Shown: piece after piece, positions 37,130-57,213 of the stretch | Layout of the letters: every line of letters starts with the position of its first letter | Position numbering within the stretch: the first letter of the stretch is position 1 | Source: a virus | Taxonomy: Duplodnaviria > Heunggongvirae > Uroviricota > Caudoviricetes | Direction: 5' to 3' (one strand) | DNA: 64,000 nt | Virus record (IMG/VR): IMGVR_UViG_3300001487_000052 | Coordinates: 37,503 to 101,502 of that record | Translations under genes and position numbers: made by a program | Notes under the pieces: generated by a model | What the model saw: only the letters and a program-made list of their open reading frames with translations | The model's database searches: none | What the model was told of the DNA's origin: nothing

Positions 37130-37668
37130 AAATATTTGTTCCATTATACTTAAGAGATATCCCAGTAATTTCTCAGTTTGTTCAGATTTATAGTAAGTAT
37201 GCAGAAGACTATAGAGAAGATCCGAGAGATAGCCTAGCCGATTATAGAGAGTCTCTGAAAAGAGATCCTGTAAAATATTTTGTAGGCATGTGTTTTGATG
37301 AAGAGGAGCTTGGGGATAAGTACGATGATATAGTAAATTATGTATCTCGTCTCTTTGAATCTGTAAAGGGAACTGAGAAGATATTTGACTACATGAAAAA
37401 GTACTTAAATGATTATCTCGACATACAGGGGGAGCCAACTTACACAGGACAATATATAGAGATTATGTTTGGTGCCTTAGTTCTCACGGATGAAGAACAT
37501 TTTTATACATCCTTATATAATTTCCTCAGTGCCCTCTTGGTATTTGAAGACCTTATCACAAATATAGGAGATTTAGGTCTGACAGTTAAAGATGAGATAA
37601 CTAATTATGTAGCAGCAGATGTTATATGCTACAAAAAATATAATATAAATTATGAAGCTAGTAATTAA
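37126..37668 (+). CDS. baseplate protein I-like (by synteny and size, 180 aa)
   Basis: Coupled ORF between the J-like gene and the first fiber gene. Confidence 0.3.
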   Translation: MKIFVPLYLRDIPVISQFVQIYSKYAEDYREDPRDSLADYRESLKRDPVKYFVGMCFDEEELGDKYDDIVNYVSRLFESVKGTEKIFDYMKKYLNDYLDIQGEPTYTGQYIEIMFGALVLTDEEHFYTSLYNFLSALLVFEDLITNIGDLGLTVKDEITNYVAADVICYKKYNINYEASN

Positions 37669-40210
37669 TAGTACAGATTTCTCAACTATTGGTACTGCTC
37701 TATATTTTTCTAATTCTAGCCATAATGCTAAATTTCTACCATCCTGGATAATAAGTGATGAGGAAATAGGAACTGGCTTTGAGTATCTTGGTGATCTTAA
37801 AATGATAAATGATCTAGAGAATCCCATCTTATTCCAAAATAAATATTTCAGTGTGGACAATCTTAGGTATTTTGCTTATCCAAGTCCTGAACTATTTGTT
37901 ACGAATGGGCAAAAAACAGTAGATACTCCCCTTAATAATCCCAGCGTTTATTATTGCGGTAATAAGGAGAGACTATTAGATGGAGATTTTGCTGAATATG
38001 ATTTTTCATTTTTAGTTGATAAATATAAATTCAATAATAATTTAAAAATACAATACCTAGATAAAGAGTCACAAGATATCTTAGGATATGATGTTTCTGA
38101 ATTAACTGAGATGGAAAAGATCTTATTTCCAACTGCTTATGAATCGTCTGATTCTAATTACCTTTTAACTGCAGGTGGAACTAGGATTAATACAGGTGGC
38201 GGTAATAGGTTGTTGTGGAGAGAGCCTGAAAGTGTAGCTCCTGAAGTAATCTACAGAAGAAATTATTTTGGTATGGTTACTATAGGAACTTATACTTTAT
38301 TTGTTTTTAAGGTACCTCCTTATGTAAGAAAAATAGAATTATATGAGGGTACTGTATTGGGTTCAAATTTATCACTAATAAACACCAATTATGACTATAG
38401 AATTAGAAATTATAGTAAGTATGACCCAGAAAAAACATATAGTAAAAATGATACAGTAGTATACTCTGGATCAACTTGGAAAGCACTCGTAGACGGAATA
38501 ACTGGAGATTGGGATGCTACTAAGTGGAAATTTGTTAGTAAGTTTATTCAACCCAGTTTATCTATCTATCTAGGACCAGATTATTTATGGAGTCTTTGTC
38601 CTAGTGATTGGTATCAAGCAGATCCTAATTCTTGGGGGAGTTCAATCAGATATCTTCCAACATCTAAGAAATACCTGAAAGGAATGGATGAGATAACCTC
38701 AGAAAAGATATTATGGATGGTTATTACAGATTCTGGTCAGATCTTGGATATTAATCTCTCTTATAATTCTTGGAGTACGGATAAAGTAAACCCTGAGAGA
38801 AATAAGTGGAAGTATAGTCTTAGAAACGATGAATTCTGGAGTACGAAAGATAATATGTCCTTGTTAAAAGATAAGTCAGGAATATTATTGGATGGCAGAT
38901 CAAATACTATCTTAAGTACGGAGAAGGTAGAAACTCATCCAATACTCTCTAGGAAAATGAGGAAGTTCGATCTTAATTACTATGATGAAGACCGATCATA
39001 TGTTACTGGAGAAAAGGTTAGATACTTAGGTAAACTCTGGAAGGCCCTACAAAACGTACCCACAGGAGAAGTACCAGAAGAGAAAAGTGAATATTGGACA
39101 ACTTTAGAACAAGTTTATTCTCCTTATTGTACTTATAGACTAGGAGAAAGGGTGCTATTTAATGGAGAAGTCTGGGAAAGCTTATGTGACTTAAACCTAG
39201 GAAATAGACCGGATTATTCTAGACAATGGATCCTAAGAGATAGCACAACTAATTTCTTTACTACCAGAGTTAATGTTATAGTTAATCCCTCTGGAGCGGG
39301 AAGAATAACTCCTGGCGGACAAATTAGAATAGATGGAGAAAAAGTATTCTCTGTATATGAGACCCTAGGATATGAATTAGAGAGTGTAGATAAGGCTTGT
39401 TCTAGTGAGACTGGGAGTTATCTTAGTGACGTAAGTATTGAGACTGATAGTGTTGCTGTTGAGGGTGGAATAATGGATAGGAAAAAAGTTAGAATAGGTA
39501 GTACTTCAGTTGAACCTATCCTAAATTCTGGAAAACTTATCTTTAATTTCAAAGCTACTCCTACTATTATAACAATTAATGGTATGTATGGTGATAACTT
39601 ATATCAATACTCGGCATGGAACTTTAACAATGAGAGAATTGAGTTGACTAGTACACCCTCGGTAACTGTCAGTAATACTCTCTCTATAAATCCTGGGACG
39701 ACTCTAATTTTATCTCCAAGCACAACTCTAGTAAATAATAAATTTACAAAGGTTATGTCAACTTATACAGATAGATATGGAGTAACTAGAGTAAAACAAT
39801 TACCATTATCCGGAAATACTATAGAAGACTTTATAGACTTTTCCTCAGCTACTTATACATTCTACATTGAAAAGAATGAAGTAGTAATTGATTGTACTAT
39901 AGGTCTTTCTGAGTTTGAAATGGAAGATAATAGAATAGAGGTCGATTATAATGAAAACGGATTTTTCAGATTCTATCCAAGAGCTAGTCAAGGAAGTCGT
40001 GATATTCTAGTAGCTATTAATGATACAGACACTATAAAGGTTAAACCAGGTCAAACTCCTGATGAATATGAATATAGTCGTACTGGAACACCTAGAACTA
40101 TCCCAGGAGTTTGCAGTAATTATGAGTTGACTCCAGTTTCGGGGTACTATGAGTTACGTTTTGATAATCTGATAAGTGACGTTAATATAGAATTGAGTTA
40201 TGATAATTAA
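37652..40210 (+). CDS. tail fiber / receptor-binding protein with CBM5/12-like modules (852 aa)
   Basis: Motifs Y-x-x-GD-x-V-x-Y-x-G-x-W-x-A...W (YSKNDTVVYSGSTWKAL; YVTGEKVRYLGKLWKAL; YRLGERVLFNGEVWESL). Confidence 0.6.
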   Translation: MKLVINSTDFSTIGTALYFSNSSHNAKFLPSWIISDEEIGTGFEYLGDLKMINDLENPILFQNKYFSVDNLRYFAYPSPELFVTNGQKTVDTPLNNPSVYYCGNKERLLDGDFAEYDFSFLVDKYKFNNNLKIQYLDKESQDILGYDVSELTEMEKILFPTAYESSDSNYLLTAGGTRINTGGGNRLLWREPESVAPEVIYRRNYFGMVTIGTYTLFVFKVPPYVRKIELYEGTVLGSNLSLINTNYDYRIRNYSKYDPEKTYSKNDTVVYSGSTWKALVDGITGDWDATKWKFVSKFIQPSLSIYLGPDYLWSLCPSDWYQADPNSWGSSIRYLPTSKKYLKGMDEITSEKILWMVITDSGQILDINLSYNSWSTDKVNPERNKWKYSLRNDEFWSTKDNMSLLKDKSGILLDGRSNTILSTEKVETHPILSRKMRKFDLNYYDEDRSYVTGEKVRYLGKLWKALQNVPTGEVPEEKSEYWTTLEQVYSPYCTYRLGERVLFNGEVWESLCDLNLGNRPDYSRQWILRDSTTNFFTTRVNVIVNPSGAGRITPGGQIRIDGEKVFSVYETLGYELESVDKACSSETGSYLSDVSIETDSVAVEGGIMDRKKVRIGSTSVEPILNSGKLIFNFKATPTIITINGMYGDNLYQYSAWNFNNERIELTSTPSVTVSNTLSINPGTTLILSPSTTLVNNKFTKVMSTYTDRYGVTRVKQLPLSGNTIEDFIDFSSATYTFYIEKNEVVIDCTIGLSEFEMEDNRIEVDYNENGFFRFYPRASQGSRDILVAINDTDTIKVKPGQTPDEYEYSRTGTPRTIPGVCSNYELTPVSGYYELRFDNLISDVNIELSYDN

Positions 40211-43200
40211 TAATACACACGTTCAAGGAATTTTTTTATATTCCTCAGACGTCGATTATGAAAGAGGTGATTTTGTAGTCTCAGGGGATAGTATATATAT
40301 CTGTACAGCTTCAAATCCAACAGATGCCTTAAGAAATACAGTCTCTGGTATAGATCCTGCTACGGATACTACTGGAAACTATAAGATGTATCCAGGAGAT
40401 AAGATAAGTACTGCACAGGAATACTATGACTATGTAAATAATCGTCTCTATTGGAATTATAAAAATACAAAAGAGGAAGTAGAATCCGCTCTTGATGTAG
40501 AAGCAGGAACTCTTATCATAAAGGGGACTGTAACTTCTCGAGATGCTCTTCCTACCCAATTTCTAGAGGAAGGAGATGTTTATAGAGTTGGTACGGATAG
40601 TACTGGTTATGAGTATGCTTATATACCTTATAAAATCGACAAATATATCTCTGGAAATGTTTTAAATCAGATTCTTCAGGATTCGTTTTTTGGTGTTAAC
40701 GAAGAGGGTGTTATCACTAATTACGTTTATACAAATACGGACGACGAAGGAAATGAAGTCTTAGAATATTCTATAGGTGGTTCACTTGCTAATATAGAAG
40801 ATAATAAGATCCTAAATGCCATTATGAAATCCCCTGACTTAAATAATGGTATGTTTAATGTTTCTCGTGCTCTTTCTGAAATAGCTGCTTACGTAAATAG
40901 AGGGGCTAATACAGAAAGTGTCTTAGTAAAGCAATATACCTATCTTGATACTAGTGGTGGTAATAAGAGAGTAAGAATACAAGAATTAGTAGACCCCAGC
41001 TTAGGAAGTATATATTATAGATGGTCTGAGGGAATTAGTTTATCTACTGACACATATAGTCCAGGTCAAGTATATAAATTAAATGATGTAGTTAGGTACT
41101 CAGGGAAATCTTGGTTATCTATGACTAATAATAATTCTGGACATCAACCTGGAAGTGACATAAACTACTGGACTGAATATAGCGGTGCATGGGCCTATAA
41201 TAACATAACCTCTTGGCAAAGTACTTTTTCTAGTAATGGAGCTGTCTTAGCACAACAAGTAAATGATATAAAAGCATATTATAATAAGAAGATTGCAGAA
41301 CTAGAGGCTACGAAAAAACAACTAGCTGGGACTTTCTGTAATAGGGAAGTCAGTAATATTTCTGGAACTTCAAATACAGCAACTCTAGTAGCAAGAGAGA
41401 ATGTTAGAATGCATAGTTCATGGGATTACGTGGATAGTGATGAAACAGATCTTTTAAATAAATTAGGAGTTAATTCGCTATCTGATGTTTTTACACTAGT
41501 TTCTTCAGTGGGGAAAGTAAATACCTATATGAATCCAGGGCCTCTCGGAATTAATGTTATTGTTAAGGTAGGTACAAGAACTAATTATACCTTTTCTTAC
41601 AGTAATGGCGGTGGTGCTTGGGTACATGGAAAAACATTGGCACAGATATTAACGGAATTTAATGTAACTAAACTATCTGATGTATTTCTAGTTCCACAAG
41701 AGACATATAACTTATTCTTATCTCTTCCTATGGATTGTCCTTTTACTGTTATAATAAAGGATGACTCTTCAAGAGATCTGAGTATTTCTTTATATAAACA
41801 AGTAAAGCAGAGTTGGACATATGGAAGAACCTTATTTGAAGAGTCAGATATAGCAAATCAAGTTACGAGAATTTTCCTTGAAGACTTGATTTATAATGAA
41901 GCTCACCTAGGAACTACATATAATGGAACTGTAGGAAATACTCTAGTCGTAGAAACTTATGGAGAAGCAGATAACCAGGATGATTTTCCGGATGCAAAAA
42001 GTGTAGTATCTTGCCCCGGACTTTATGGAGTTTATGAATATAAGATGCCAACTCTATATAAGTCCTATTTTGCAGATCCCATTGGTCCAGAAGAGATAAG
42101 TGATTATAGCGACGAACGAGAATATAAACGCGGTGAGAAAGTTAGATTTAATAATATTACCTACATGTCTGTCGAAGAGGTAGTTCCAGGTCATAATCCC
42201 GAAAATAATCCTTCAAAGTGGATTCCTTGGTATGATTACTTAGGAGGATTTACTTGGAAATCTGCTTACCCAGGACCAGATGGAAAAGATAGGCCCATAA
42301 ATGATCTCATAACTGACCTATCAACTTCGTATCGTTCTGGTAGTGGTGGAAATCTTTGGCAGCAACTTGTCTTGGGTCCCTCTCCCTTTGATGGGGATCT
42401 AGCATATCCGAGGGGTAGTCTAGTCGTTTATGAGGATGTATACTATAAAAATAATCTTGAAGTAAGGCCTGGTGGATCATCCCCAGACAGTTCATCCGCA
42501 TGGTCAAGTATAGGGGATAAAATAGAGAGTCTAATTCCGGATTATAGTAGTATATTCAAGATGGATAGAACTACTTTCGAATCTGAATTTTCTAACAACG
42601 AAATTGTTGAATTACCAATTGACAAAACCAAGTTCAAGTGGTTAGACTCTACAGGACAAAAAACATATACTAAATTTTTCTGTATTATATATCCTCTTTT
42701 TAATGTTAATGTTAATATAGAGGAACTGGTTAATAAGGTTACCGAAGGGAATTCCTATTATGCTTTCTTTGATCTAGATAGACCTGTTTGTATTCTTAGA
42801 AAGGTTACAGAGAATGATGATGATGTTTCATCTTATTTGAAGTATATATTAAGGGTTTATGGCGATGATTTAAAAAGTGTTTTTAGAGACTGTTGGATAG
42901 AAGATAAATCAATTATTTCAGCACTATCCTCTGGAAATGTTTATTTAAATACGTTAGAACTCCCCAATTCTGGAAGTATTAATATGTTTGTAAATATAAC
43001 ATATAGAAATCAGGAAGCGGCAGACTATTTGAAGGATAATTTCTTTAAGTGTAGAATTTCAGGTTCAGATTCAAATCTATCTTATGATAGTTTTGTAAAG
43101 GAAAATATAAGCTATAACAATATAACCTTTTTTGATGAACCCCAATCTTTTGCTGACGAAATTAATCCCCTAGGACTCTGCTCTATAAGAGTTTCAGACA

Positions 43201-45509
43201 TGGCAGATTATACTATCACCCCTATTCTAAAAGCTAAAGCTGGTGGTAATCCTAAAACAGATTACCTTTATTATATTGGTCAAACCCCTGAATATTCTTG
43301 GAGATCAATATACACTACATTAAATGGAGCTGATTCTTGGAATTCATCTAGTACCTATGATTCTGGGGACATGGTTTTTTGGCATAGTAGACTGTGGGAG
43401 AGCAACACCAACAATAACACGGGAAACACCCCCTCTCTAGATTCAAATGTCTGGGATGTCTATAATGGTGAACTCCATCCCCACGACTTCTATCCTGAAC
43501 TTAGATACATTACTAGAATAACAGATTTTAGAGCTGATTCTTGGAATTCATCTAGTACCTATAATTCGGGGAGCATAGTTTTTTGGCATAATAGACTGTG
43601 GGTAAGTCAAGTTGATGATAACATTAGTGAAATTCCCTCACTAGGTTCAAATGCTTGGGATGTATATGAGGATGAGCCTATACAAAGAGATGGAGATGTT
43701 TATTATGATGATGTAAATCACTTGTGTTATATCTGGTCAAACGGTTTTAGGGGGTTAAAAAATAGTAATAAAGTCTATAAATTAAATGGCTCAGAATCAT
43801 TTGCAGTAGTTTTTGATCCCGATCCTAGTGCTAACGTTTATTCTAAATTTGATGGTAATACTTTTTCTTCTTACAAAGATCAAAAAAATGTATTTAATGA
43901 TGTCTTAGCTCCGGCATCGGCCAGTGAGATTCCTGACACTAGAAACACCTCTCTTTATATAGCCACCGGTTCAACATCTCTTTTATCTAAGATATTTGAT
44001 TCTTCTCTGGAGGACATAAGAACTCTATGCACACTATATCCCCAAGTTAGTTATATGGTTAGAAATGGATCAGATTATTATAAAATTAATAACGGTTCAA
44101 TAAATTCTATAGAGATTACTACAAATGAAGATTATCTCGAAAATATAGATAAAATAACGACGACTAATACTCTTTCTGGTTTTTCTATGTATTATACTCC
44201 CTTTATGGTGCTTCTCGATCTCTCCAGTGATTTACAATACACAGAAGAATATAGATATATTTTTAATAATATGTCAGATGATGATAGTCAGAGAAAAACC
44301 AGAAATGATTGGAAAACTAGTGTTGGACTTCTTACTAAGACTGTTTTCGAATTAGCAGGTAAACCTGAAGAGTGGTCAGATTCTTCTACTTATAATATAG
44401 GAGATTATGTTATTTATGATGATATAGTTTGGGAAAGTACTGGTGATAATAATATAGGCAACACTCCATGGTATTCTTCGAGTGAGTGGAACCGTAGTCC
44501 TATCTTAAACTTTATCACTACAGAAGAATTAGAAGTATTAGAAGGATATTTAATACCCATTAGAACTGTATGCACTAGAACTGTAGATGGAGTAAAATAT
44601 TATTACATAAATGGTAATTATTGGGCTCCTGGAGTACCACCACAAAACGACAATGAATATAGTCAAACTCCCAATTATGATAACTTAAATTATCCTTGGG
44701 AACTACCAGATGCTTTTAATCTCGGAAAAGTTTGGGCACATACTAGAGCTGGAGGTGATAAATATTGGCATGTAGTTCAAAATAGATCAGGGTGGTTAGA
44801 GGTAAGTGCAGGTAGTTATTATGATAGCAATAGACTTATGAACGCTACTCCCTGGTGGAATAATTCAGGAAGGTTTTTAAATGCAGAAGAAGCGTTATTC
44901 GATATTCTAAAGACTAACTGTGTTGTTCATCCCAGTGCTTCTAGTTCTGCTGATAGATGGTTGGGTATAATGTGGGAAGGCACAATATCTTACTTACCTG
45001 GAGATATAGTAGTAGATGAAAATCTACTTTGGAGATGTATTAGTTCAAATACTGGTAAACAACCAAAAGAAAATCCTAACGAGTGGGCTTTTTATGGCGA
45101 CCCTCTTTTTAATACCCTTACTTACATACCATCAGAGACTCTACTTCTAACTGGTGTAGATCCTTCTGTACCTTTCAGAGTTCTCACAAAGATAGGTTCA
45201 AAGTCTGATTATTATGTTACCTTAAATACGAACTCTGCAGACTTTAGTGATCCTTGTATTATTACAGTCCTAGTTCAGCAGATTATAGATAATATAATTA
45301 AGAGCTATGTGGTTACGGTTGATCTTTCTGAGAAACCGGATCCATTGTCTGGGCTTTCTTATGTTAGATATTATATAACCCCCGATCTTTGTTTAGATGT
45401 CACTGGAGATGATGATATAACGAAGGTTCTAACAGTTAGGGATCCAAATACAGGAACAATAGATCCTGATTCTAGAATAAAAAACATATACTATAGATAT
45501 AAAATATGA
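40200..45509 (+). CDS. giant tail fiber protein (1769 aa) with at least 7 CBM5/12-like carbohydrate-binding modules
   Basis: Repeated modules such as YKLNDVVRYSGKSWLSMTNNNSGHQPGSDINYWTEY and YNIGDYVIYDDIVWESTGDNNIGNTPWYSSSEWN. Contains a recent internal duplication. Confidence 0.65.
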   Translation: MIINNTHVQGIFLYSSDVDYERGDFVVSGDSIYICTASNPTDALRNTVSGIDPATDTTGNYKMYPGDKISTAQEYYDYVNNRLYWNYKNTKEEVESALDVEAGTLIIKGTVTSRDALPTQFLEEGDVYRVGTDSTGYEYAYIPYKIDKYISGNVLNQILQDSFFGVNEEGVITNYVYTNTDDEGNEVLEYSIGGSLANIEDNKILNAIMKSPDLNNGMFNVSRALSEIAAYVNRGANTESVLVKQYTYLDTSGGNKRVRIQELVDPSLGSIYYRWSEGISLSTDTYSPGQVYKLNDVVRYSGKSWLSMTNNNSGHQPGSDINYWTEYSGAWAYNNITSWQSTFSSNGAVLAQQVNDIKAYYNKKIAELEATKKQLAGTFCNREVSNISGTSNTATLVARENVRMHSSWDYVDSDETDLLNKLGVNSLSDVFTLVSSVGKVNTYMNPGPLGINVIVKVGTRTNYTFSYSNGGGAWVHGKTLAQILTEFNVTKLSDVFLVPQETYNLFLSLPMDCPFTVIIKDDSSRDLSISLYKQVKQSWTYGRTLFEESDIANQVTRIFLEDLIYNEAHLGTTYNGTVGNTLVVETYGEADNQDDFPDAKSVVSCPGLYGVYEYKMPTLYKSYFADPIGPEEISDYSDEREYKRGEKVRFNNITYMSVEEVVPGHNPENNPSKWIPWYDYLGGFTWKSAYPGPDGKDRPINDLITDLSTSYRSGSGGNLWQQLVLGPSPFDGDLAYPRGSLVVYEDVYYKNNLEVRPGGSSPDSSSAWSSIGDKIESLIPDYSSIFKMDRTTFESEFSNNEIVELPIDKTKFKWLDSTGQKTYTKFFCIIYPLFNVNVNIEELVNKVTEGNSYYAFFDLDRPVCILRKVTENDDDVSSYLKYILRVYGDDLKSVFRDCWIEDKSIISALSSGNVYLNTLELPNSGSINMFVNITYRNQEAADYLKDNFFKCRISGSDSNLSYDSFVKENISYNNITFFDEPQSFADEINPLGLCSIRVSDMADYTITPILKAKAGGNPKTDYLYYIGQTPEYSWRSIYTTLNGADSWNSSSTYDSGDMVFWHSRLWESNTNNNTGNTPSLDSNVWDVYNGELHPHDFYPELRYITRITDFRADSWNSSSTYNSGSIVFWHNRLWVSQVDDNISEIPSLGSNAWDVYEDEPIQRDGDVYYDDVNHLCYIWSNGFRGLKNSNKVYKLNGSESFAVVFDPDPSANVYSKFDGNTFSSYKDQKNVFNDVLAPASASEIPDTRNTSLYIATGSTSLLSKIFDSSLEDIRTLCTLYPQVSYMVRNGSDYYKINNGSINSIEITTNEDYLENIDKITTTNTLSGFSMYYTPFMVLLDLSSDLQYTEEYRYIFNNMSDDDSQRKTRNDWKTSVGLLTKTVFELAGKPEEWSDSSTYNIGDYVIYDDIVWESTGDNNIGNTPWYSSSEWNRSPILNFITTEELEVLEGYLIPIRTVCTRTVDGVKYYYINGNYWAPGVPPQNDNEYSQTPNYDNLNYPWELPDAFNLGKVWAHTRAGGDKYWHVVQNRSGWLEVSAGSYYDSNRLMNATPWWNNSGRFLNAEEALFDILKTNCVVHPSASSSADRWLGIMWEGTISYLPGDIVVDENLLWRCISSNTGKQPKENPNEWAFYGDPLFNTLTYIPSETLLLTGVDPSVPFRVLTKIGSKSDYYVTLNTNSADFSDPCIITVLVQQIIDNIIKSYVVTVDLSEKPDPLSGLSYVRYYITPDLCLDVTGDDDITKVLTVRDPNTGTIDPDSRIKNIYYRYKI
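43329..43736 (+). repeat. near-identical 204-bp tandem duplication inside the fiber gene
   Basis: GCTGATTCTTGGAATTCATCTAGTACCTAT... at 43329 and again at 43533, about 90% identical over the first roughly 75 nt. Encodes duplicated ADSWNSSSTY-SG-(V/I)VFWH-RLW modules. Confidence 0.7.
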
Positions 45510-47912: not shown

Positions 47913-50900
47913 GAATAAAGGTAAGTAGCTCGTTTGAAGAGCTTATGAAAAGGGTGGATTGTAAAATAATCTTAAAGGAAGCTTGGTTAGATAAAGTATA
48001 TCCAAGTTTTGATGAGAATACTATATTACAATCCTGCCATAAAGATGTTAAGGTTTCAGCAAATGGTATATGGGAGGAAGATACAAACTTATTAAAACTT
48101 CTTATTACCATACCTGAAAGTAATATCGCTAAAAGTAATGATGAAGGACATCCTGACGCGTTTGTTACTGAAGAGTATGGAGCTATATACTTCTTCTCTG
48201 GGAACGAGCCTGCCTTTGTTATTTACGATACCGGAGGAACTAATCTGGATCTTAGCTTGGGAAGAAACCTAATTGATCTTGAATTCCCTGAAGACTGGAA
48301 AGGAAGGGTTGAATTAATGGATACAAGCGAGGATACAAAGTTCTTAGAAACCTTCGGACAAAACCCAGGAAAAAATATCTTTGTTACAGGAAATGAAGAC
48401 GCCCTAGTATCAAAGGAAACCTACTACACTTATTGGAGACTAGAGGTTACTAAGGATACTACAGCTACAGATCTTCCTCTCCTTGATGAAAATGGAAAAT
48501 TAGTAACAGAGAACTATAGATACAGAACTTATAGTAATCTCCGTATTGATTGTCCTGGGTTAACAAAAACTACAACCCCACACACTAAATACGGGCTATC
48601 AGATAATGGGGGTTCTATTCCTATCCTGGGTTATGCTGACTTCGTAGAGTATAGAGTTTTTGGAGATACTATAACTGAAGTAATGAGGGGTACAACTACA
48701 ATAGAAAGTATCCCTAGCTCTGAGATTGTTTATATAAGTGGACATGATGATAATGGAATAGTAGTAGATGAAGTACACAACATCTTTACTCCAAACAACT
48801 ACTCTTCCATGATTGACTACATAAAAAATAACAATCCAGGAAGTTATGGTGCTGATGGTATTTTTGGATTACGACTTACTTATTACGACGTTAAAGAACA
48901 AAAACCCGTATTAGTGGAGAGTGAGAATCAGATTAAACTAGTAAGAAGAGATAAGTCAGCTGATTGGTTTATCCTAAGATCTTCTACTCATTATCTCGAG
49001 AGCACTGATGAATATGGGGATGTACCTGTTTATTTGTTTCCCTATAATACTTCCGGAACTGAATCTTTTACTATACGTACTAGATTTTTAGAGCCTATCA
49101 CAAATATAAATCAGCTACAAATTACTTTCGACAATCCCATACTTACAAACCTATTTACCGTTACTCCATCTCTTGCCCCATTTGTAGATGTTAATGGGAC
49201 TTATTATGTGGATATCCTAGTAAACCTGAAAGCAAAGACTGAAAATGAAGATCCTGTAAAGTGGGCGCCTATTATAGATGGTGTTTCTACTTTGATTCAG
49301 GCTAAAATCAGTTATAATGAATACTTTGAGGTTTTTTATATGGTTCAATGTCCTAAGATAGAAGATTCCTTAAAGCTTGTAGATAATAACGGAAATAGAG
49401 TTGATCGCATAGTCTTAAATCCCGGTAGTGGTAGTAATAAGGTTGTGTATGTGATAGCTGATGAAGAAACTGAAGATGTAGGCGATAGAAACAGCTGGAG
49501 AATAATGTCGTTCCCTGATGGTATGACATTTAATCAACAAAATGGAATTATCTCTGGTCGGGTAGAACATAATCCAGAAAATACACTTCAAGTTTTCTAT
49601 AAATCAGATTCAACTACAGCACAAGATATTACTCCAAGCCAAGATATTGTAATTACCAGACTAAAAGAGGTGGGAGTGGCAGAAGATCTAGAGACTACAA
49701 CGAATTGGAGAGTAATGGTAGATGTTGCTCAGATTCATGTTGGGTTTATGAAATATGGAAAGAATATCTCTGTTAGTCCTGCAAATACTTCAATCTCAGT
49801 AAAGGGAATCGGTTTATATGAACTAAAAATAAGATCTAATTGTCAATTTATTCTAAGTACTGAAGATACTAGATATAAATTCAGAGAACAAGGTAGAATG
49901 CAGGCTAAGAGTTCTCTTCAATCACCCTCCTATAATGACCCTAGATATGAAACTTATGGATATTTTAATTATTGGGTTCAAGTAGAAACAGTAAATGCTA
50001 CACAAACTATTACATTATCCCCTATAAAGATTCTGGCTCAAGAGGGTGAGAGAACATTAGAAAAAACCGTAAGTGTAACTCAGTCTATAGTCTCTAGTGA
50101 TATCTACAAACTTAAAACAGATGGTAATGCTTATAGTGATGGAGAGTGGAATGTAACGCTTGGAGTAGTTAATAATAATCTTAAGTCTGGTTCTTCTTAT
50201 GTTCCTGAAGCTTGGATAAAAAGGGGTACTTCAGATACGGTTCATGTATATAACAAAATGAAAACCTATAAAGAAGGAGATATTGTTAAGTATTATGTAA
50301 ATGAACCAGAAGCCTCAGTTTATTCATCTTCCATAACGTATTCATCTGGGACCGTAGTAAGGTGGTTTAGTAGTTGGTGGACGTCTCTGTCTGGAAATAA
50401 TCATGGAAATACACCAACAGAGGGAAGTAGCTATTGGGAAAACGTAAGTCAGTATTTTGTTAGTAAAAACGACGGAAACCGACAGAATCTCCCACAGCAA
50501 GGTGATAGTTCTAGCTGGTGGTATGAGATTCCTAACGTACAAGATTACCAAGAACTAGATAATAGATTAACCAGCTTAGATACTGCTAGTTTTTATAGTT
50601 CTACCACAAAATATAAAATTGGAGACATAGTAAAAAAAGAAAGTGATTTTTCAAGTTGGGTTAGTAGTACGGACTATGCTGTTAATAGTAAAGTAAAAGC
50701 AAATTCTAATTATTGGATTTGTACACAGCAAACAGGAGCCAATGGACCCGAGCCTGGTGGTGTAAGTGACGATTGGGAAGAGTATTGGAGGGGAGCTAAA
50801 ATGAATGACTTTATTTACTACGTAGCTAAGAAGACTATGAGGGAATGTACGAATAAATGGATTTCAACTACCACATATAATAAAGGTGTGTTTGTTTTAT

Positions 50901-52624
50901 ATGGTGGACAAGTTTGGAGAAGTAAAGAAAATAATAATGTTAATCATACCCCTGCCTCGGGATCCGCTTATTGGGAACTAGATTTCTTGAATATAAATAG
51001 AGATCTAACTGATTCTTATTGGTGGAGTAAGATATCTAATTCTTCTCTTAATTTTATAGGACAGGACATAAAATATAGGTTCATTGTAATTAGAGAAAAT
51101 AATATTCCTTTTCTTTATATGTCAATGGTTGCTTATGTGACTAAGCCAAATCTATATATTTACAATTTTTCTGCACTTAGAGACGCTATCTTAGAACGGG
51201 GGAATGAAAACAATGAAATACTCTTTGTCCTAAATAATCCCGAACTTTATAAAGCAGGAACATCAATAAGAATAATCGACCCAGAAGAACTTAGAAGAAG
51301 TTGGCAATCATCAAGTCTTGATAACCGTCGAGATGATGTAGATATATATCTTTACATAAGTCGAGACAGTAGTTGGGTAATACTAGATACCTTAGATTCT
51401 CTTATGATGACTCTGGGGGGATCATATAACAACACTTATTTTTCTGACAGCTCTTCAAGGTGTTACACAAAAGATGAATATAACCTAAGAGTAAAATATT
51501 CAAATCTCATACCTTCAAGTAATCAAAGAAATGTTTATATTATTTCTGACTATAAAGCAAGTAATAGCCTTAGTTCCCTAGCTTCAACTGGTGGCTTCTC
51601 TGGAAATACAAAGAAACTTATTCCATACTTCAATTCTATCTCAGAACTTCCTACCCTTAGTACCTTAGCTAGAACCTCAGATGATAATAAATTCATAAGA
51701 ACCTATTGTAGAATTCCTGATGGTAAGATAGTAAGAACTGCAGCCCTTGATCTAACCTGGGATTCTAATAATATAGGACCTACATATAAAGGTCAATACT
51801 CTGGATCTACACAGTACTATACAGGTAATATTGTTTATTACACATTAACCGGTCAAGAAAAACTATATTATCAGTACAAAAACGGTCATCAGGGTCAAAG
51901 CGGTCACTCACCAATAGAAGATACTAACGAAACTTATTGGACTTGCTTAAGCTGGACGGAATTAAGTGGAGTTGATACAGAAGCTGGGGCTATAAATGCG
52001 GTTAAGTCTGAAATGGGTCTCAAGTCAACAAATGAAATTGTTTATCTTGGTTATTACTCTAGTGGAACTTTATATACCGTGACTAAGAATAACATAGGAA
52101 AAGAGCCTAGTCCTGGAAACATTATTAAACTTGGATCAAAATATTACTACTGTGGAGTTCTATGGAAAGTATCTGATGTATCTGTAGAAGACCTAGACTT
52201 TTCATTACTAAGTGGAACTAATAAACTTCCGGATATAACTATGGGATATACAAACATTCTTTGTAAGGTCGGTACAAGTGCTAATTATACCTATTATTAT
52301 TGTAAGTCTAATTATGTCTTTAATAATGTTAAGATTAATCAGTATATATTCGTTCCAAAAACTTCCGGAAATACGACTCAATTTAGATTCTTTTCTAGGA
52401 AGAGCCCGACGGAACAGCTAGATACTCCCGAAAGTAATAGTATTCTTGCTTTATATGGTGGTTTAACTATAGCAGGTCATAGTACTCCCGAATTTGATGA
52501 GGAAACCAGTGAAAATAACCACTACATGTCTCACTCCATTGAACTAGGATATACGCAGGGAGTTGATGAGAATTTATCTGAAAATGTATTAGAAGAAGTA
52601 ATAGAAAGGATAGGAGACATTTAA
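47909..52624 (+). CDS. giant fiber/adhesin protein (1571 aa) with CBM5/12-like modules
   Basis: YSSGTVVRWFSSWWTSLSGNNHGNTPTEGSSYWENV; YNKGVFVLYGGQVWRSKENNNVNHTPASGSAYWELD. Confidence 0.6.
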   Translation: MRIKVSSSFEELMKRVDCKIILKEAWLDKVYPSFDENTILQSCHKDVKVSANGIWEEDTNLLKLLITIPESNIAKSNDEGHPDAFVTEEYGAIYFFSGNEPAFVIYDTGGTNLDLSLGRNLIDLEFPEDWKGRVELMDTSEDTKFLETFGQNPGKNIFVTGNEDALVSKETYYTYWRLEVTKDTTATDLPLLDENGKLVTENYRYRTYSNLRIDCPGLTKTTTPHTKYGLSDNGGSIPILGYADFVEYRVFGDTITEVMRGTTTIESIPSSEIVYISGHDDNGIVVDEVHNIFTPNNYSSMIDYIKNNNPGSYGADGIFGLRLTYYDVKEQKPVLVESENQIKLVRRDKSADWFILRSSTHYLESTDEYGDVPVYLFPYNTSGTESFTIRTRFLEPITNINQLQITFDNPILTNLFTVTPSLAPFVDVNGTYYVDILVNLKAKTENEDPVKWAPIIDGVSTLIQAKISYNEYFEVFYMVQCPKIEDSLKLVDNNGNRVDRIVLNPGSGSNKVVYVIADEETEDVGDRNSWRIMSFPDGMTFNQQNGIISGRVEHNPENTLQVFYKSDSTTAQDITPSQDIVITRLKEVGVAEDLETTTNWRVMVDVAQIHVGFMKYGKNISVSPANTSISVKGIGLYELKIRSNCQFILSTEDTRYKFREQGRMQAKSSLQSPSYNDPRYETYGYFNYWVQVETVNATQTITLSPIKILAQEGERTLEKTVSVTQSIVSSDIYKLKTDGNAYSDGEWNVTLGVVNNNLKSGSSYVPEAWIKRGTSDTVHVYNKMKTYKEGDIVKYYVNEPEASVYSSSITYSSGTVVRWFSSWWTSLSGNNHGNTPTEGSSYWENVSQYFVSKNDGNRQNLPQQGDSSSWWYEIPNVQDYQELDNRLTSLDTASFYSSTTKYKIGDIVKKESDFSSWVSSTDYAVNSKVKANSNYWICTQQTGANGPEPGGVSDDWEEYWRGAKMNDFIYYVAKKTMRECTNKWISTTTYNKGVFVLYGGQVWRSKENNNVNHTPASGSAYWELDFLNINRDLTDSYWWSKISNSSLNFIGQDIKYRFIVIRENNIPFLYMSMVAYVTKPNLYIYNFSALRDAILERGNENNEILFVLNNPELYKAGTSIRIIDPEELRRSWQSSSLDNRRDDVDIYLYISRDSSWVILDTLDSLMMTLGGSYNNTYFSDSSSRCYTKDEYNLRVKYSNLIPSSNQRNVYIISDYKASNSLSSLASTGGFSGNTKKLIPYFNSISELPTLSTLARTSDDNKFIRTYCRIPDGKIVRTAALDLTWDSNNIGPTYKGQYSGSTQYYTGNIVYYTLTGQEKLYYQYKNGHQGQSGHSPIEDTNETYWTCLSWTELSGVDTEAGAINAVKSEMGLKSTNEIVYLGYYSSGTLYTVTKNNIGKEPSPGNIIKLGSKYYYCGVLWKVSDVSVEDLDFSLLSGTNKLPDITMGYTNILCKVGTSANYTYYYCKSNYVFNNVKINQYIFVPKTSGNTTQFRFFSRKSPTEQLDTPESNSILALYGGLTIAGHSTPEFDEETSENNHYMSHSIELGYTQGVDENLSENVLEEVIERIGDI

Positions 52625-52626
52625 TT

Positions 52627-55600
52627 ATGAGCACAATACCACAGAATCAGGCAGTACTAGAAGGAAAACTAACTCTAACTAATACTGAAAATACTAATAC
52701 TACAGGTGATAGTAGATCCAATAAAGTTAGATACTATGATGTTTTTGGTCAAGAGGGTTGGGAAATACTAGATACTGGAAGTGATCTAAGAACTAGTAAG
52801 AACTCTATAACATATCAGGTGTATCGTGCTCCAGTATCACCAAGAATAACACTATATCAAGAAAATGAAGAAGTTACCTCTATCTTAGTAAATCAAGCCG
52901 CAAATGTATCTACTGTAGTGGAGGTTGTTTCTACTCATCCTGTTTCTATCTCTAGAAAAATATCTACTATGTCCCTATTTAATAATACTAGGGAAGCAAT
53001 AGTAACTTTAGATACTAATGGAACTAATTATAGTTATACTTTTACAGTAGGTCAACCTCGAGTGAAATCAGATGGAAATTATCATTACTCTCTTACAGTA
53101 ACTCCAACTAGTACAAACCCAAATGATACGGAATCAATAAAGCTTGGGGACTTAACATTTACTTCTAGAATTTATAAAAATGGAACTAAACCTACGGAAT
53201 GGATTGTTGTAGATGATGATGGAAACGGAGAGAATATTTTAAAAACAATTCTAAGAACTGATACTCTAAACATTATAAACCTAAATGAAGATTTTTTAGA
53301 TAACAATAATCAATATCTTAGAATAAATTACCTCCCAGATATAGATAATGCTGTTCCTGGTGTAGTTTATAGGGGAACTATGGATAATGTTAGTCCTTTT
53401 GTATACTATCCTTATTTGATGGGAAATATTGCTAGTGGGAATACAGGAACAACTTATAAATTCTTTGTTGCTGTTCCCTATGGCCTAACTAAAGAATCCT
53501 ATGGAACAGGTGATATAGATTACATAGAAAGTTATAATCAGTATTATTATTCACAGTCTGAGATTGATGATACATTTGGATATGTCTCTAAGAATATTTC
53601 TATAATTCAATCTGGAACTTTTACTTATTCTATCTCCGGAAATAAAACCGAAGACATTGATTTTTTAGGTGAAACTAGAAATTATGAGCTAAGAGTCACT
53701 CCGGAGAGAGCAATAAGCGGATATACTGTTGGGTCTACTGAAAATTGTTTAATCACAACGAATGGAAATACAATAACGATGTCAGTTCCCAGCCGTATTA
53801 GTGATTATTCCCCAAAACCCATAACTAACAACTACTATACAAATCTGGTTTCTAGGTTACCGGTATCTTTCAATCTGGCAGTAAATGCTGTTGATACTAA
53901 AGCAGTTAATAAAATCGCCAACTTAGGACAACTTAACTCAGTTATTAAATCTACCTTAGAGTTAGACGGAGTCCCAGTTGTAGGAACTAGTGGACTAAGT
54001 ATAGAACCTTCCAATATATATTATACAGATAATATCACTGGATTGGTAAAATATGTAAGACTATTAGAGACTTACAATTATTATCCCGGGGTTTCAAGAT
54101 ATAATGTTGGAGAAACAAGGGGATACACTCATAAAACTGCTACATGGTCATTATTAACTACTCTCAGAAGTGAGGATGATTTGGCTGGGCTTAGACGAAA
54201 TAGAAACAGAAAATATGGCTTTTCTGAGGATACGTCGTGGTATCCAGTTATTATAGGTAATAGCGAAACTTCAGTACAATTACCTTCTAATTCAGATGAC
54301 TTTGCTGTAATAGGTGGATCTTGGGTTCCAGCTACGGATAGTTCTGGACGTGGTGATGATATAATAGTATATGAATTTCCAGCAATAGCAAAAGCGGGGT
54401 ATACTTATAAAGTTGGTAATGATAGAAAAGTCTGCCAACCCCCACAATCAAACATAAGGGTAGTCTCTGCAACCGCCACATGGATAAACTCTGGAAATAA
54501 TGAACAGTTATATAATGACCTTGGATTAGAATATAATGGATATACTTGGGAAACTGATTTACATAGTACTCCTATCTCGGGCTATGTAGATCTAACCCCA
54601 ATATATACTAACTCACCTGCCGCCGATTCACGTAGCTATGGAACTACTCATTATCTTTGGAATTATGCTGATACAATTCCATCAGAACAATCTAGTTGGT
54701 CCATAGTTCAAGTATCCTCTCTCCCTGCAACTAGAAACCTTTGCAACTCGAGGGTGGTATATCAAGTAACTGGACAAAGTGGTTATTATTGGTTAAATAC
54801 AGAGATTAGAATATGTAAAATGAAACCAGTATATTCAATGGTGGCACTTTCTAATCCTCCTGAAGTATATAACCTTATTTATTCTTATTCTAAGGGAGAT
54901 AAAGTCTTTAAGGATAATAATAGAAAAGAAGTATATGAAAGCTTAATTGATAATAATCTAGGAAATAGTGTATCTGATATAACTAAGTGGAAAAAGCTAG
55001 GGGATGTGTTTTCCGCAAATAGTTTAGGATATGAATATTATAAAGTTGATAGACTTCCACTTCCACACAATAGTAGTTCTTCTGATGTCTATACAGGAAC
55101 TATTTTACCTACTGCATCGGCCACTAGTAAAAAATATGCTAAGATTACTACAGGTGGTAAAATCTACTATTATAGGAAAGGCTATAACTTTTTAGTCCCA
55201 AATCCAGTAGCATCATCAGATAATATAAAAGACTATGGACTTTATCTTTCAGACGTTACTGACCCAGCTCATCCAGTAAATACGATACAGACTGGAAGAT
55301 TTTTCACAAGAGTAGTAGGTGGCGAAACAATTTATTTCCGGCTCAAATTATATGCTCCCGAACTTGCAATGCCTAACAATTTCCATGATAATACTGAAAA
55401 CAAGCTATTATCTTCAGACTATCCTGGAGCCATTGTATTAAAAGGAGATAATTCAGAGTCCGGTTTTGGTAGAAGTCGTAGTCAGCTTCAGTCTTGGGGT
55501 TATTACTTTGTAGACTTTAATGATTATACAGTAAGATCCCAATCCTTCGAAGAAACAATAGATCTAAGACAGGAAAGAATTACTAAAGGTATAGTTTCTA

Positions 55601-57213
55601 ATCTAGGATCTCTCAATTCATCAGGAGAACTCGATTACCCTGGAGATTATAAACTTTACTTAGGGGAGAGCGGATTAAACACAATAGAAGTTTCCGTTGG
55701 TTCTGATGTAACTGAAATAAAAGGAATGATTGGTGTATTTGATATTAATAATACCCTACTACCAACCTCTAATAGAGTGGGTACAGCTCCTACTATTACA
55801 GTTTCAGGATCACAAGAAACAGATGTATTCAGTGGTCTTACAACTCCTAAACTTGATGGTGGAAATACAGCTAATTTCGTTGTAAGTTTTGACAAGAATG
55901 TTGGGGATTCTGCTATAACTAGAACATATCAATTTAGTTATTCTGAAGATGAACTCAATACTTTAGTCACCCTTATTATAACTCAAGCTGCAGACCCAGG
56001 AGAAGTAAGATTAAGCTCAAGAAAATTATATTTCCTCAGTAACGGTCTTTTAAATAATTCTAATAATTTTGGAATTTTAAACTTTTCATCCGATATACGT
56101 AATAATGGTCAGGTAATGGATATAGATAATATAGAAGTTATTTCTAATACCGGTGAAGATCTAATTGACAGAGATGGCTCTTTAGTAGAATACACTAATC
56201 TATCTCCTACATACGTTACCTATAGAGCTATTTTGAAACTTAAACCAAACACAAGACATCATAACCTTGAGGGATTTAGAATTAAGATTGGTAAAAGAAC
56301 TGCAAATGGACTAACTGATAGAACATTACTTTTTAGAGACAATCAAGAAGTACTCGATGGATTTTATAAACGGACTTCTTCTGGATGGACTCTATTAGGA
56401 GATGAATATGTTCCTACTTATCTTGAGGACTATTATGAAAATCTCCCCGAAACAGGTACTATTGGAAGTGTTATCTGTAAATGTTCTAGTCTACGTGGAA
56501 ATCAAGGTTATTATTCTGTTTCACTGTTTAATCCCGGAGTTACAAGTTATGATAATCCGGTGAGCTTGGAATGGAGAACTACAACAGACCTACAAGATAT
56601 TATAAATGATTTTGGTTTGCCTAGTTCTTTTACTCTTGGGGATATTTCGGGAATTATTACAACTGCTACTGAGATTCCCGATATAGAAACAGTCAAGACT
56701 TCTGGTTTAATTTATCAGATTGGCACTACTTATTATTACACCTACTCCGATTTTATTACCTCAGATTATACTTACGGTACCCCTGGCTTTCCGGTTGCTA
56801 TAGGTACAAGTAGGCAAGGACAGCAAAAATACCATATGGAAATAGTTCAGAGTGAGTATGATACCTCAGGAAATACACACCTAACCAATTTAACAGACAC
56901 CTTCTTTGATATTGCTACTAATTATGACTTAGACTTAGTTTCTACATCAGGGCTTTATAATACTAGTGGCGCACCAATAGAAGATATTAATCTTGAAGAG
57001 GTTTGTTTTGTGAGGGCTGTATACTCTGATACACAAAATCCATCCTTAGTTCCATATCTTGAAACTTCCTATTCTTTTAGTGATAATGCTTCTGATATAA
57101 TAATTAAATTGGACGTTCATTTAAACGTTCGTTACAATAATTCTGGAAATATACCTATGGATGGAGAGTATTTGCGGATTGATAACTTCTTTACCTTCTA
57201 TACTAAGAGATAA
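52627..57213 (+). CDS. giant fiber/adhesin protein (1528 aa)
   Basis: Thr/Ser/Asn/Gly/Tyr-rich beta-type composition. One CBM-like module (YSKGDKVFKDNNRKEVYESLIDNNLGNSVSDITKWKKL). Confidence 0.55.
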   Translation: MSTIPQNQAVLEGKLTLTNTENTNTTGDSRSNKVRYYDVFGQEGWEILDTGSDLRTSKNSITYQVYRAPVSPRITLYQENEEVTSILVNQAANVSTVVEVVSTHPVSISRKISTMSLFNNTREAIVTLDTNGTNYSYTFTVGQPRVKSDGNYHYSLTVTPTSTNPNDTESIKLGDLTFTSRIYKNGTKPTEWIVVDDDGNGENILKTILRTDTLNIINLNEDFLDNNNQYLRINYLPDIDNAVPGVVYRGTMDNVSPFVYYPYLMGNIASGNTGTTYKFFVAVPYGLTKESYGTGDIDYIESYNQYYYSQSEIDDTFGYVSKNISIIQSGTFTYSISGNKTEDIDFLGETRNYELRVTPERAISGYTVGSTENCLITTNGNTITMSVPSRISDYSPKPITNNYYTNLVSRLPVSFNLAVNAVDTKAVNKIANLGQLNSVIKSTLELDGVPVVGTSGLSIEPSNIYYTDNITGLVKYVRLLETYNYYPGVSRYNVGETRGYTHKTATWSLLTTLRSEDDLAGLRRNRNRKYGFSEDTSWYPVIIGNSETSVQLPSNSDDFAVIGGSWVPATDSSGRGDDIIVYEFPAIAKAGYTYKVGNDRKVCQPPQSNIRVVSATATWINSGNNEQLYNDLGLEYNGYTWETDLHSTPISGYVDLTPIYTNSPAADSRSYGTTHYLWNYADTIPSEQSSWSIVQVSSLPATRNLCNSRVVYQVTGQSGYYWLNTEIRICKMKPVYSMVALSNPPEVYNLIYSYSKGDKVFKDNNRKEVYESLIDNNLGNSVSDITKWKKLGDVFSANSLGYEYYKVDRLPLPHNSSSSDVYTGTILPTASATSKKYAKITTGGKIYYYRKGYNFLVPNPVASSDNIKDYGLYLSDVTDPAHPVNTIQTGRFFTRVVGGETIYFRLKLYAPELAMPNNFHDNTENKLLSSDYPGAIVLKGDNSESGFGRSRSQLQSWGYYFVDFNDYTVRSQSFEETIDLRQERITKGIVSNLGSLNSSGELDYPGDYKLYLGESGLNTIEVSVGSDVTEIKGMIGVFDINNTLLPTSNRVGTAPTITVSGSQETDVFSGLTTPKLDGGNTANFVVSFDKNVGDSAITRTYQFSYSEDELNTLVTLIITQAADPGEVRLSSRKLYFLSNGLLNNSNNFGILNFSSDIRNNGQVMDIDNIEVISNTGEDLIDRDGSLVEYTNLSPTYVTYRAILKLKPNTRHHNLEGFRIKIGKRTANGLTDRTLLFRDNQEVLDGFYKRTSSGWTLLGDEYVPTYLEDYYENLPETGTIGSVICKCSSLRGNQGYYSVSLFNPGVTSYDNPVSLEWRTTTDLQDIINDFGLPSSFTLGDISGIITTATEIPDIETVKTSGLIYQIGTTYYYTYSDFITSDYTYGTPGFPVAIGTSRQGQQKYHMEIVQSEYDTSGNTHLTNLTDTFFDIATNYDLDLVSTSGLYNTSGAPIEDINLEEVCFVRAVYSDTQNPSLVPYLETSYSFSDNASDIIIKLDVHLNVRYNNSGNIPMDGEYLRIDNFFTFYTKR

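What the first reader, a model, noticed from the sequence alone, without database searches (positions are those of the whole stretch)
37652..57213. About 19.5 kb devoted to four giant fiber proteins carrying many CBM5/12-like Trp-rich modules
Motifs of the type Y-x-x-G-D-x-V-x-[YW]-x-G-x-x-W-x-[SA]...(N-x-G)...W recur at least 15 times across 37652, 40200, 47909 and 52627. They resemble chitin/cellulose-binding CBM5/12 domains. This suggests multivalent glycan recognition (capsule, EPS or chitin-like polymers) and modular shuffling between the fiber genes.
Basis: partly seen in the sequence, partly recalled or inferred. Interest (0 to 1): 0.6.

Follow-up and report, generated by a model that had tools for sequence, protein, structure and literature searches.

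The report
CBM5/12-type beads on phage tail fibres
Four very large structural proteins of an uncultivated giant phage carry about 15 copies of a small chitin-binding-type module that is already common in phage tail fibres, so the feature is real but ordinary, and its sugar-binding role is unproven.

Summary
ORFs A (37652), B (40200), C (47909) and D (52627) contain 15 full copies of a ~40-aa Y-x-x-G-D-x-V…W-x-S…G-x-x-P…W module, plus one degenerate copy and two half copies. The split is uneven: A 3, B 7+1, C 4+2 halves, D 1. A regex finds 14 hits against 0.14 expected in shuffles.

All 15 copies lack the aromatic residues that distinguish the ChiB and ChiA1 chitin-binding domains (ChiB W479/Y481, ChiA1 W687). 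An Asn-rich loop sits there instead.

This subtype is abundant: 11,572 protein clusters, with up to 43 copies per protein. The best matches are PHROG tail-fibre families, often mixed with collagen repeats. In solved fibres the same fold forms shaft beads or baseplate anchors.

Orthologues of B carry 0-7 modules. The variation includes a tandem duplication, and a module nested inside another that is 56% identical to module A263 of protein A.

Verdict: a new member of a known kind. Glycan binding is plausible but not shown, and canonical chitin or cellulose binding is unlikely.

The parts
37652..40210 (+). ORF A, 852 aa, three modules; first large protein after conserved 113/481/180-aa genes
   Evidence: CBM_5_12 40.6 bits; synteny
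38420..38527 (+). module A263 (short-loop subtype TGDWDATKW)
   Evidence: 56% identical to the module nested in B-orthologues P0014/P0015
38981..39097 (+). module A450
   Evidence: (A450+A495 together 33.4 bits to PF02839)
39116..39229 (+). module A495
40200..45509 (+). ORF B, 1769 aa, seven modules plus one degenerate copy. N-terminal 600 aa and the C-terminus are conserved; the centre (600-1250) is variable
   Evidence: (53.8 bits)
40239..40391 (+). degenerate N-terminal module B20 (YERGDFVVSGDSIYICTA...), 97% conserved among close orthologues
   Evidence: No Pfam hit. Lies in a well-predicted region of the AF2 model, pLDDT 72-90 for residues 10-150
41055..41171 (+). module B292 (97% conserved among close orthologues)
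42105..42221 (+). module B642 (variable, 56% conserved)
42387..42503 (+). module B736
   Evidence: no Pfam hit on its own
43338..43454 (+). module B1053, first copy of a tandem duplication
   Evidence: DNA 92% identical over 72 nt to 43531-43602, spacing 204 nt. Missing in orthologues P0003 and P0005-P0008. AF2 model pLDDT 82.8
43542..43658 (+). module B1121, second copy of the tandem duplication
   Evidence: 63% aa identity to B1053
44373..44489 (+). module B1398
   Evidence: Absent in P0012/P0013; an extra module lies upstream in P0004/P0009
44973..45086 (+). module B1598. In orthologues P0014-16 a second module is nested inside it
   Evidence: (18.3 bits)
45506..46348 (+). ORF x, 280 aa, no module, conserved in relatives
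46335..47912 (+). ORF y, 525 aa, no module, conserved in relatives
47909..52624 (+). ORF C, 1571 aa, four modules plus two half-modules. Most lie in residues 780-1025, which have no counterpart in the L003 orthologue
50249..50299 (+). half-module C787 (YKEGDIVKYY). Possibly the outer half of a nested pair with C811
   Evidence: weak: 13.4 bits after excising C811
50321..50437 (+). module C811
   Evidence: Pfam on 50225-50476 matched only the C787 half-module (residues 9-23, 11.4 bits), not C811
50594..50641 (+). half-module C902 (YKIGDIVKKE)
50657..50776 (+). module C923
   Evidence: (16.9 bits)
50858..50974 (+). module C990
   Evidence: 18.3 bits
51797..51940 (+). module C1303, with a 7-aa insertion in the first hairpin
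   Evidence: no Pfam hit
52627..57213 (+). ORF D, 1528 aa, one module. Fused with C into one 3050-aa ORF in relative L002
54868..54990 (+). module D754, conserved at the matching place in L002
   Evidence: (18.3 bits against a seed HMM that did not include it); no Pfam hit

Best explanation
The repeats are ~40-45-residue domains with the CBM5/12 (ChtBD3) fold. They belong to the subtype that is widespread in phage tail-fibre and baseplate proteins. Here they are inserted as separate 'beads' into large, otherwise orphan structural proteins (A, B, C, D). [quoted passage not shown]

Shown:
- The modules exist and have the CBM5/12 sequence signature and predicted fold.
- They lack the aromatic residues that distinguish the ChiB and ChiA1 chitin-binding domains. 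A polar, Asn-rich loop ([ND]-N-x-G-[NH]-x-P) takes their place.
- Their number and position change between orthologues through tandem duplication, loss, nested insertion and transfer between genes.
- They concentrate in the variable parts of B and C.

Inferred:
- The proteins trimerise into fibres, so each module position forms a three-module bead.
- Beads in the variable regions make many weak contacts with a host-surface polysaccharide other than crystalline chitin or cellulose. This would raise avidity during reversible adsorption and help adapt host range.
- The highly conserved N-terminal copies (B20, B292) serve in folding or docking.
For: Sequence: PF02839 scores above its cutoff for A and B. 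Single modules match the full model length. The module profile finds the ChiA1 and Pyrococcus chitin-binding domains and several phage fibre and baseplate chains in the PDB.

Fibre context:
- The closest multi-copy relatives fall in PHROG tail-fibre families and often carry collagen repeats.
- 508 viral structure matches are named tail fibre, baseplate wedge or tail collar.
- The genes follow a tail block with a weak sheath hit and a peptidase-bearing tail protein.
- Gene order is conserved in relatives.

Host-range link: modules are 68% conserved against 83% for the rest of B among close orthologues. They sit in the variable centre of the protein, and copy number ranges from 0 to 7.
Against: - No ligand has been tested.
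- Aromatic residues at the positions of ChiB W479/Y481 and ChiA1 W687 are absent in all 15 modules. They occur at 0-2% of those positions in 1066 related modules.
- In solved structures the same fold sits in a baseplate-anchoring N-terminus (7-7-1 gp015, PMC12796354), in shaft beads (Pa193 gp47, PMC11456595) and in a CIS baseplate protein (7b5h). No sugar binding is reported for any of these.
- The two most conserved copies (B20, B292) behave like structural elements.
- The scaffolds have no detectable homology to any characterised fibre.
- The sheath assignment is weak (E 4.5e-4).
Confidence: 0.55

Rival explanations
1. The modules are purely architectural. They act as rigid beads or spacers that set fibre length and stiffness, or as docking knobs for baseplate or inter-fibre protein contacts. 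They do not bind carbohydrate.
For: - The aromatic residues that distinguish the ChiB and ChiA1 domains are absent.
- The profile hits residues 29-68 of phage 7-7-1 gp015, inside its baseplate-anchoring N-terminus (PMC12796354).
- It also hits the AnaCIS baseplate protein All3316 and an 'adaptor protein'.
- The Pa193 gp47 shaft is described as beads of small beta-sheets (PMC11456595).
- The F2-pyocin match (residues 866-913) lies within the helical-shaft region (819-1204) where the paper reports an insertion domain of unknown role (PMC13455828).
- B20 and B292 are 97% conserved.
- Related proteins alternate the module with collagen triple helix.
Against: Modules are enriched in the most variable regions and change in number between close relatives, which is more typical of host-interaction elements. 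Surface loops are polar and variable while only core residues are conserved, as expected of a binding scaffold. The parent family binds carbohydrate.
Confidence: 0.33
2. The modules are canonical chitin- or cellulose-binding CBM5/12 domains. They tether the phage to chitinous or cellulosic particles or to mucus-like matrices in the environment, rather than to the host cell.
For: Pfam and fold assignment to CBM5/12. The multivalent arrangement would suit binding to an insoluble polymer.
Against: Positions equivalent to ChiB W479/Y481 and ChiA1 W687 (listed as the distinguishing residues in PMC5461050) are never aromatic in the 15 modules. No glycoside hydrolase domain is present in A-D. The habitat and host are unknown.
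Confidence: 0.08
3. The motif is a chance or compositional pattern, or a generic beta-sandwich signature unrelated to CBM5/12.
For: Single modules score only 11-18 bits against PF02839, and four of them get no Pfam hit.
Confidence: 0.02

Closest known systems
Chitin-binding domains of bacterial chitinases (CAZy CBM5/CBM12; Pfam PF02839; e.g. Serratia ChiB 453-499, Bacillus circulans ChiA1 655-699, Streptomyces griseus ChiC)
   Different: No exposed aromatic residues at the positions matching ChiB W479/Y481 and ChiA1 W687; an Asn-rich loop is there instead. Not attached to a glycoside hydrolase. Present in many copies inside giant virion-type proteins.
Multi-copy CBM5/12 tail-fibre proteins of phages (PHROG families 5073, 9851, 8147, 20878, 26419; often with collagen repeats)
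   Same: Same module subtype (consensus …NtGntP…W), repeated many times in proteins of 0.5-5 kaa. B gives weak direct hits to phrog_8147 and phrog_14646 through its modules.
   Different: The scaffolds between the modules in A-D have no collagen repeats and no homology to those families. Copy number here is 1-8 per protein, against up to 43 elsewhere.
Solved fibres and baseplate parts that contain the fold: phage 7-7-1 long fibre gp015 (9rkv), Pa193 gp47 (9b45), Milano gp124 (8fqc), F2-pyocin central fibre (25vf), AnaCIS All3316 (7b5h)
   Same: The small CBM5/12-like module lies inside trimeric fibre or baseplate proteins.
   Different: Those proteins carry one or a few copies, mostly N-terminal and used for anchoring or as shaft beads. 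There is no sequence similarity outside the module.
T4 long tail fibre gene set gp34-gp35-gp36-gp37 (PMC5537660)
   Same: The order large protein, two small proteins, large protein (B-x-y-C/D) resembles g34-g35-g36-g37. B has conserved ends and a variable middle, as expected of a fibre segment joined at both ends.
   Different: This is an analogy of gene order only. No homology was detected.

Membership tests
CBM5/12 (Pfam PF02839 CBM_5_12 / SMART ChtBD3) | Sequence match to the family HMM above the curated threshold (26.2 bits) | tested here: met
   A 40.6 bits (2 stretches) and B 53.8 bits (5 stretches). Single modules align to model positions 2-43 of 44 but score only 11-18 bits each.
CBM5/12 (Pfam PF02839 CBM_5_12 / SMART ChtBD3) | The same threshold for proteins C and D | tested here: not met
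   No PF02839 hit for full-length C or D. C923 scores 16.9 bits and C990 18.3 bits. The segment holding C811 matched only through the C787 half-module (11.4 bits). C1303 and D754 get no hit. These copies are assigned through the window's own profile and the shared alignment.
CBM5/12 (Pfam PF02839 CBM_5_12 / SMART ChtBD3) | Compact ~45-residue fold of short antiparallel beta-strands, superposable on solved chitin-binding domains | tested here: met
CBM5/12 (Pfam PF02839 CBM_5_12 / SMART ChtBD3) | Exposed aromatic residues that distinguish the subfamilies (ChiB Trp479/Tyr481; ChiA1 Trp687; ChiC Trp59/Trp60 not aligned here; PMC5461050 citing Akagi 2006). That they bind the polysaccharide is from my own knowledge | tested here: not met
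   hhalign places W687 on the first x of G-x-x-P, and W479/Y481 in the loop after W-x-S. All 15 modules have N/H/E/K/G/D/P/T/S there and never W, Y or F. Related modules are 0-2% aromatic at those positions.
CBM5/12 (Pfam PF02839 CBM_5_12 / SMART ChtBD3) | Demonstrated binding to chitin, cellulose or another glycan | not testable with these tools
   Needs expressed protein.
Phage tail fibre / receptor-binding proteins | Encoded in the tail/baseplate gene block of a tailed phage | tested here: inconclusive
   The contig is 243,846 bp. Upstream ORFs give a weak sheath hit (phrog_23, E 4.5e-4), a peptidase/endolysin domain in a 1045-aa protein and a weak tape-measure hit. The ORFs immediately upstream have no family hits. 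Gene order is conserved in two relatives.
Phage tail fibre / receptor-binding proteins | Homology to a characterised fibre family outside the shared module | tested here: not met
   The only PHROG hits are weak and module-borne, and C and D have none. The only PDB sequence hit is one marginal, module-borne match for A (2rts, E 0.23); B, C and D have none. No tblastn match in 50,697 phage records. No NCBIfam hit.
Phage tail fibre / receptor-binding proteins | Elongated trimeric structure present in the virion | not testable with these tools
   Only monomer AF2 was available. The B1-640 model has mean pLDDT 57.5 and a long helix at 347-380 with low confidence.
T4-type long tail fibre (gp34-37) | Sequence homology to gp34, gp35, gp36 or gp37 | tested here: not met
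   No PHROG, Pfam or PDB match. Only the gene order is similar.

The most novel reading that the evidence does not exclude
The Asn-rich-loop variant (…[ND]-N-x-G-[NH]-x-P…) could be a functionally distinct class of the CBM5/12 fold that is specific to phage fibres. It would recognise bacterial envelope glycans through hydrogen bonding rather than aromatic stacking. Copy number would be tuned by tandem duplication, transfer between genes and 'module-inside-module' insertion, and would act as an avidity dial for host range in a lineage of jumbo phages with no cultured relative.
Probability: 0.2. Interest if true: 0.5.

Novelty: new member of a known kind. Interest (0 to 1): 0.27.

Why it matters
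The finding marks the likely host-recognition apparatus of a jumbo-phage lineage that has no match in the GenBank phage collection searched. It also shows that the 'CBM5/12' label on phage fibres should not be read as chitin or cellulose binding, because the distinguishing aromatic residues are systematically missing in this very common subtype. Gain, loss and nesting of modules give a concrete picture of how giant fibre proteins evolve. The domain itself and its presence in phage fibres are already known, so the general significance is modest.

Tried and rejected
- megablast of the 19.5-kb region, and tblastn of B and of the putative sheath, against 50,697 phage records: no match.
- phmmer of full-length B, C and D against PDB sequences: nothing. 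A gave only a marginal 2rts hit.
- NCBIfam on all six ORFs: nothing.
- PHROGs and Pfam on neighbouring ORFs: nothing usable.
- The search for homologous proteins with the 60-aa module profile: nothing, because the word index is too coarse.
- Homologues of D carry no Pfam domain.
- The AF2 model of B1-640 had low overall confidence (57.5). Apart from the CBM module it gave no credible PDB fold match, so the scaffold fold remains unknown.
- The nested-module reading of C787/C811 and C902/C923 got only weak support: 13-18 bits after in-silico excision, with a noisy control. I report it as possible only.
- A programmed frameshift joining C and D was considered and rejected. D has its own AGGAG and ATG, and the two genes are also separate in relative L003.
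- Literature searches found no experimental study of CBM5/12 modules in phage fibres.
Full report
**Context.** The window is part of a 243,846-bp metagenomic contig (ENA ERZ12302819 NODE_32). Nearly all large ORFs lie on the + strand up to about 60 kb. Upstream of the finding there is a weak tail-sheath match (1714-4110, phrog_23, E 4.5e-4). There is also a 1045-aa protein with a peptidase/endolysin domain, and a weak tape-measure-like hit. Neither the region nor the proteins match any of 50,697 deposited phage genomes, by DNA or by tblastn. The source is therefore an uncultivated, probably contractile-tailed, jumbo phage with no close described relative.

**The observation.** The four coordinates are the ATG starts of ORFs A (852 aa), B (1769 aa), C (1571 aa) and D (1528 aa). 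Two smaller ORFs, x (280 aa) and y (525 aa), lie between B and C and carry no modules.

- A regex for the whole motif hits 14 times, against 0.14 expected in shuffled proteins.
- Profile mapping gives these positions:
  - A: 263, 450, 495.
  - B: 292, 642, 736, 1053, 1121, 1398, 1598, plus a degenerate N-terminal copy at 20.
  - C: 811, 923, 990, 1303, plus two half-modules at 787 and 902.
  - D: 754.
- The count of 'at least 15' is correct, but the distribution is very uneven.

**What the module is.**

- Pfam CBM_5_12 passes its gathering score for A (40.6 bits) and B (53.8 bits), but not for C or D.
- Single modules align across almost the whole model yet score only 11-18 bits. Four of them get no hit.
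- A profile of the 15 modules (alignment A1) finds the ChiA1 and Pyrococcus chitin-binding domains in the PDB. It also finds phage and CIS structural proteins: All3316 of the Anabaena CIS baseplate, an 'adaptor protein', the phage 7-7-1 long fibre, an F2-pyocin fibre and Milano gp124.
- An independent model of B1-640, built from orthologues, again placed a module on the ChiB CBM at 1.1 Å over 43 columns and 30% identity.
- The CBM5/12 fold assignment is therefore well supported.

**The binding site.** I checked my recalled sequences of ChiA1 655-699 and ChiB 453-499 against the PDB, and both were identical to the deposited chains.

- hhalign places ChiA1 W687 on the first x of the modules' G-x-x-P. 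It places ChiB W479 and Y481 in the loop after W-x-S.
- PMC5461050, citing Akagi 2006, lists these residues as the ones that distinguish the ChBD subfamilies. That they are the chitin-contacting residues is from my own knowledge.
- None of the 15 modules has an aromatic residue at those positions. The loop is [ND]-N-x-G-[NH]-x-P.
- The residues conserved between modules (Y, G, V, W/Y, S/A/C, G, P, W) are the family's core positions.

**How common it is.** A search of 1.84 billion cluster representatives with the module profile found 11,572 proteins at E ≤ 1e-3 and 200 at E ≤ 1e-30.

- Some carry up to 43 copies in one 4341-aa protein.
- Seven of the top hits all gave strong CBM_5_12 matches and strong PHROG 'tail fiber protein' matches (phrog_5073, 9851, 8147, 20878, 26419). 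Four of the seven also carry collagen repeats.
- The 1066 modules in the 149 top proteins share the consensus aW-sssttY-avGDiVtYnGslY-C-ltanNtGntPstdstyW, with 0-2% aromatic residues in the loop. The search profile biases this set toward the window's own subtype.
- BFVD gave 508 viral structure matches. They are named tail fibre, baseplate wedge, tail collar, CBM5/12, ChiC_BD or collagen-like.
- The module in phage fibres is therefore a known and populous kind.

**What solved structures say about its role.**

- In phage 7-7-1 the match lies at residues 29-68 of gp015. Residues 1-120 of that protein anchor the fibre to the baseplate (PMC12796354).
- In the F2 pyocin the match (residues 866-913) falls in the central-fibre region (819-1204), whose helical shaft carries an insertion domain of unknown role (PMC13455828).
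- None of these papers reports sugar binding by the module.

**Evolution in this lineage.** B has 24 metagenomic relatives, and they carry between 0 and 7 modules.

- B1053 and B1121 form a tandem duplication (DNA 92% identical over 72 nt, 204 nt apart). Five close orthologues lack it.
- P0004 and P0009 have an extra module. P0012 and P0013 lack B1398.
- In P0014-16 a complete module is inserted into the first hairpin of the B1598-equivalent module. That inner module is 56% identical to A263 of protein A, against at most 44% to any other window module. Modules have therefore moved between the fibre genes in the wider lineage.
- Within the window the modules are old: 12-46% identical, apart from the tandem pair at 63%.
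- Among close orthologues, the first 600 residues and the C-terminus of B are 87-100% conserved, while residues 600-1250 are 57-75% conserved. Modules average 68% conservation against 83% elsewhere. B20 and B292 are exceptions at 97%.
- The C orthologues in two relatives carry no modules, and C residues 750-950 have no counterpart in L003.

**Gene organisation.** The order 113 aa, ~485 aa, ~180 aa, A, B, x, y, C, D is conserved in two relatives.

- In L002, C and D form a single 3050-aa ORF.
- In the window they are separated by TAA-TT-ATG, with an AGGAG 9 nt upstream of the ATG.
- The pattern of a large protein, two small proteins, then a large protein recalls T4 g34-g37 (PMC5537660). This is an analogy only.

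**Conclusion.**

- The functional reading (multivalent glycan binding) is plausible, because the modules sit in variable regions and vary in copy number. It is untested, however. It is weakened by the absence of the distinguishing aromatic residues and by the structural roles of this fold in solved fibres.
- Canonical binding to chitin or cellulose is unlikely.
- 'Fiber' rests on gene context and on the company the module keeps elsewhere.
- This is a new member of a known kind, in a phage lineage that is itself uncharacterised.

Noticed in passing
window 47909-57213; locus L002 17104-24683: C and D are two adjacent genes here, separated by TAA-TT-ATG with an AGGAG 9 nt upstream of the D start. 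In relative L002 they are a single 3050-aa ORF, and in L003 they are separate again. This is gene fission or fusion of a giant structural gene.
   Followed up: yes
B aa 127, 454, 1662 (window ~40578, 41559, 45183); C aa 1405, 1451 (~52121, 52259); D aa 1362 (~56710): A second recurrent motif that is not CBM-like: [IVL]-x-[KRQ]-[IVL]-G-[TSN]-x(2-5)-[YF] followed by a Tyr-rich strand, for example VIVKVGTRTNYTFSYS and ILCKVGTSANYTYYYC. It occurs 6 times against 0.18 expected. It lies about 100-170 aa before the C-terminus of B, C and D, so these proteins may share a C-terminal domain. The DNA repeat 41557-41605 / 52257-52305 (80% identical) is this motif.
   Followed up: partly
orthologues P0014-P0016 of B (position equivalent to window 44973-45086); possibly window 50249-50437 and 50594-50776: Module-inside-module insertion. 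A complete module sits in the first hairpin of another module in three B orthologues. The half-modules C787 and C902 in the window may be outer halves of the same arrangement, but support for that is weak.
   Followed up: partly
window 41238-41339 (B aa 347-380): AF2 predicts a 34-residue helix with low monomer confidence between module B292 and a well-predicted domain at residues 410-530. It could be a trimeric coiled-coil segment of the fibre.
   Followed up: no
window 45506-47912 (ORFs x and y): Two small proteins between B and C are better conserved in distant relatives than the giant proteins. y is 45-68% identical and x 54-61%, against 34-41% for C (best local alignments). They have no family match. 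They could be joint or chaperone proteins of the fibre.
   Followed up: partly
whole window: No DNA or protein similarity to any of 50,697 GenBank phage records, even for the putative sheath. GC content is 30-41%. Gene orientation switches to the minus strand after about 60.8 kb.
   Followed up: partly
proteins P0037, P0057, P0094 (public metagenome clusters): Proteins of 2.6-5.6 kaa carry 35-43 copies of the same module subtype. P0037 is 4341 aa with 43 copies, far more than in this window.
   Followed up: no
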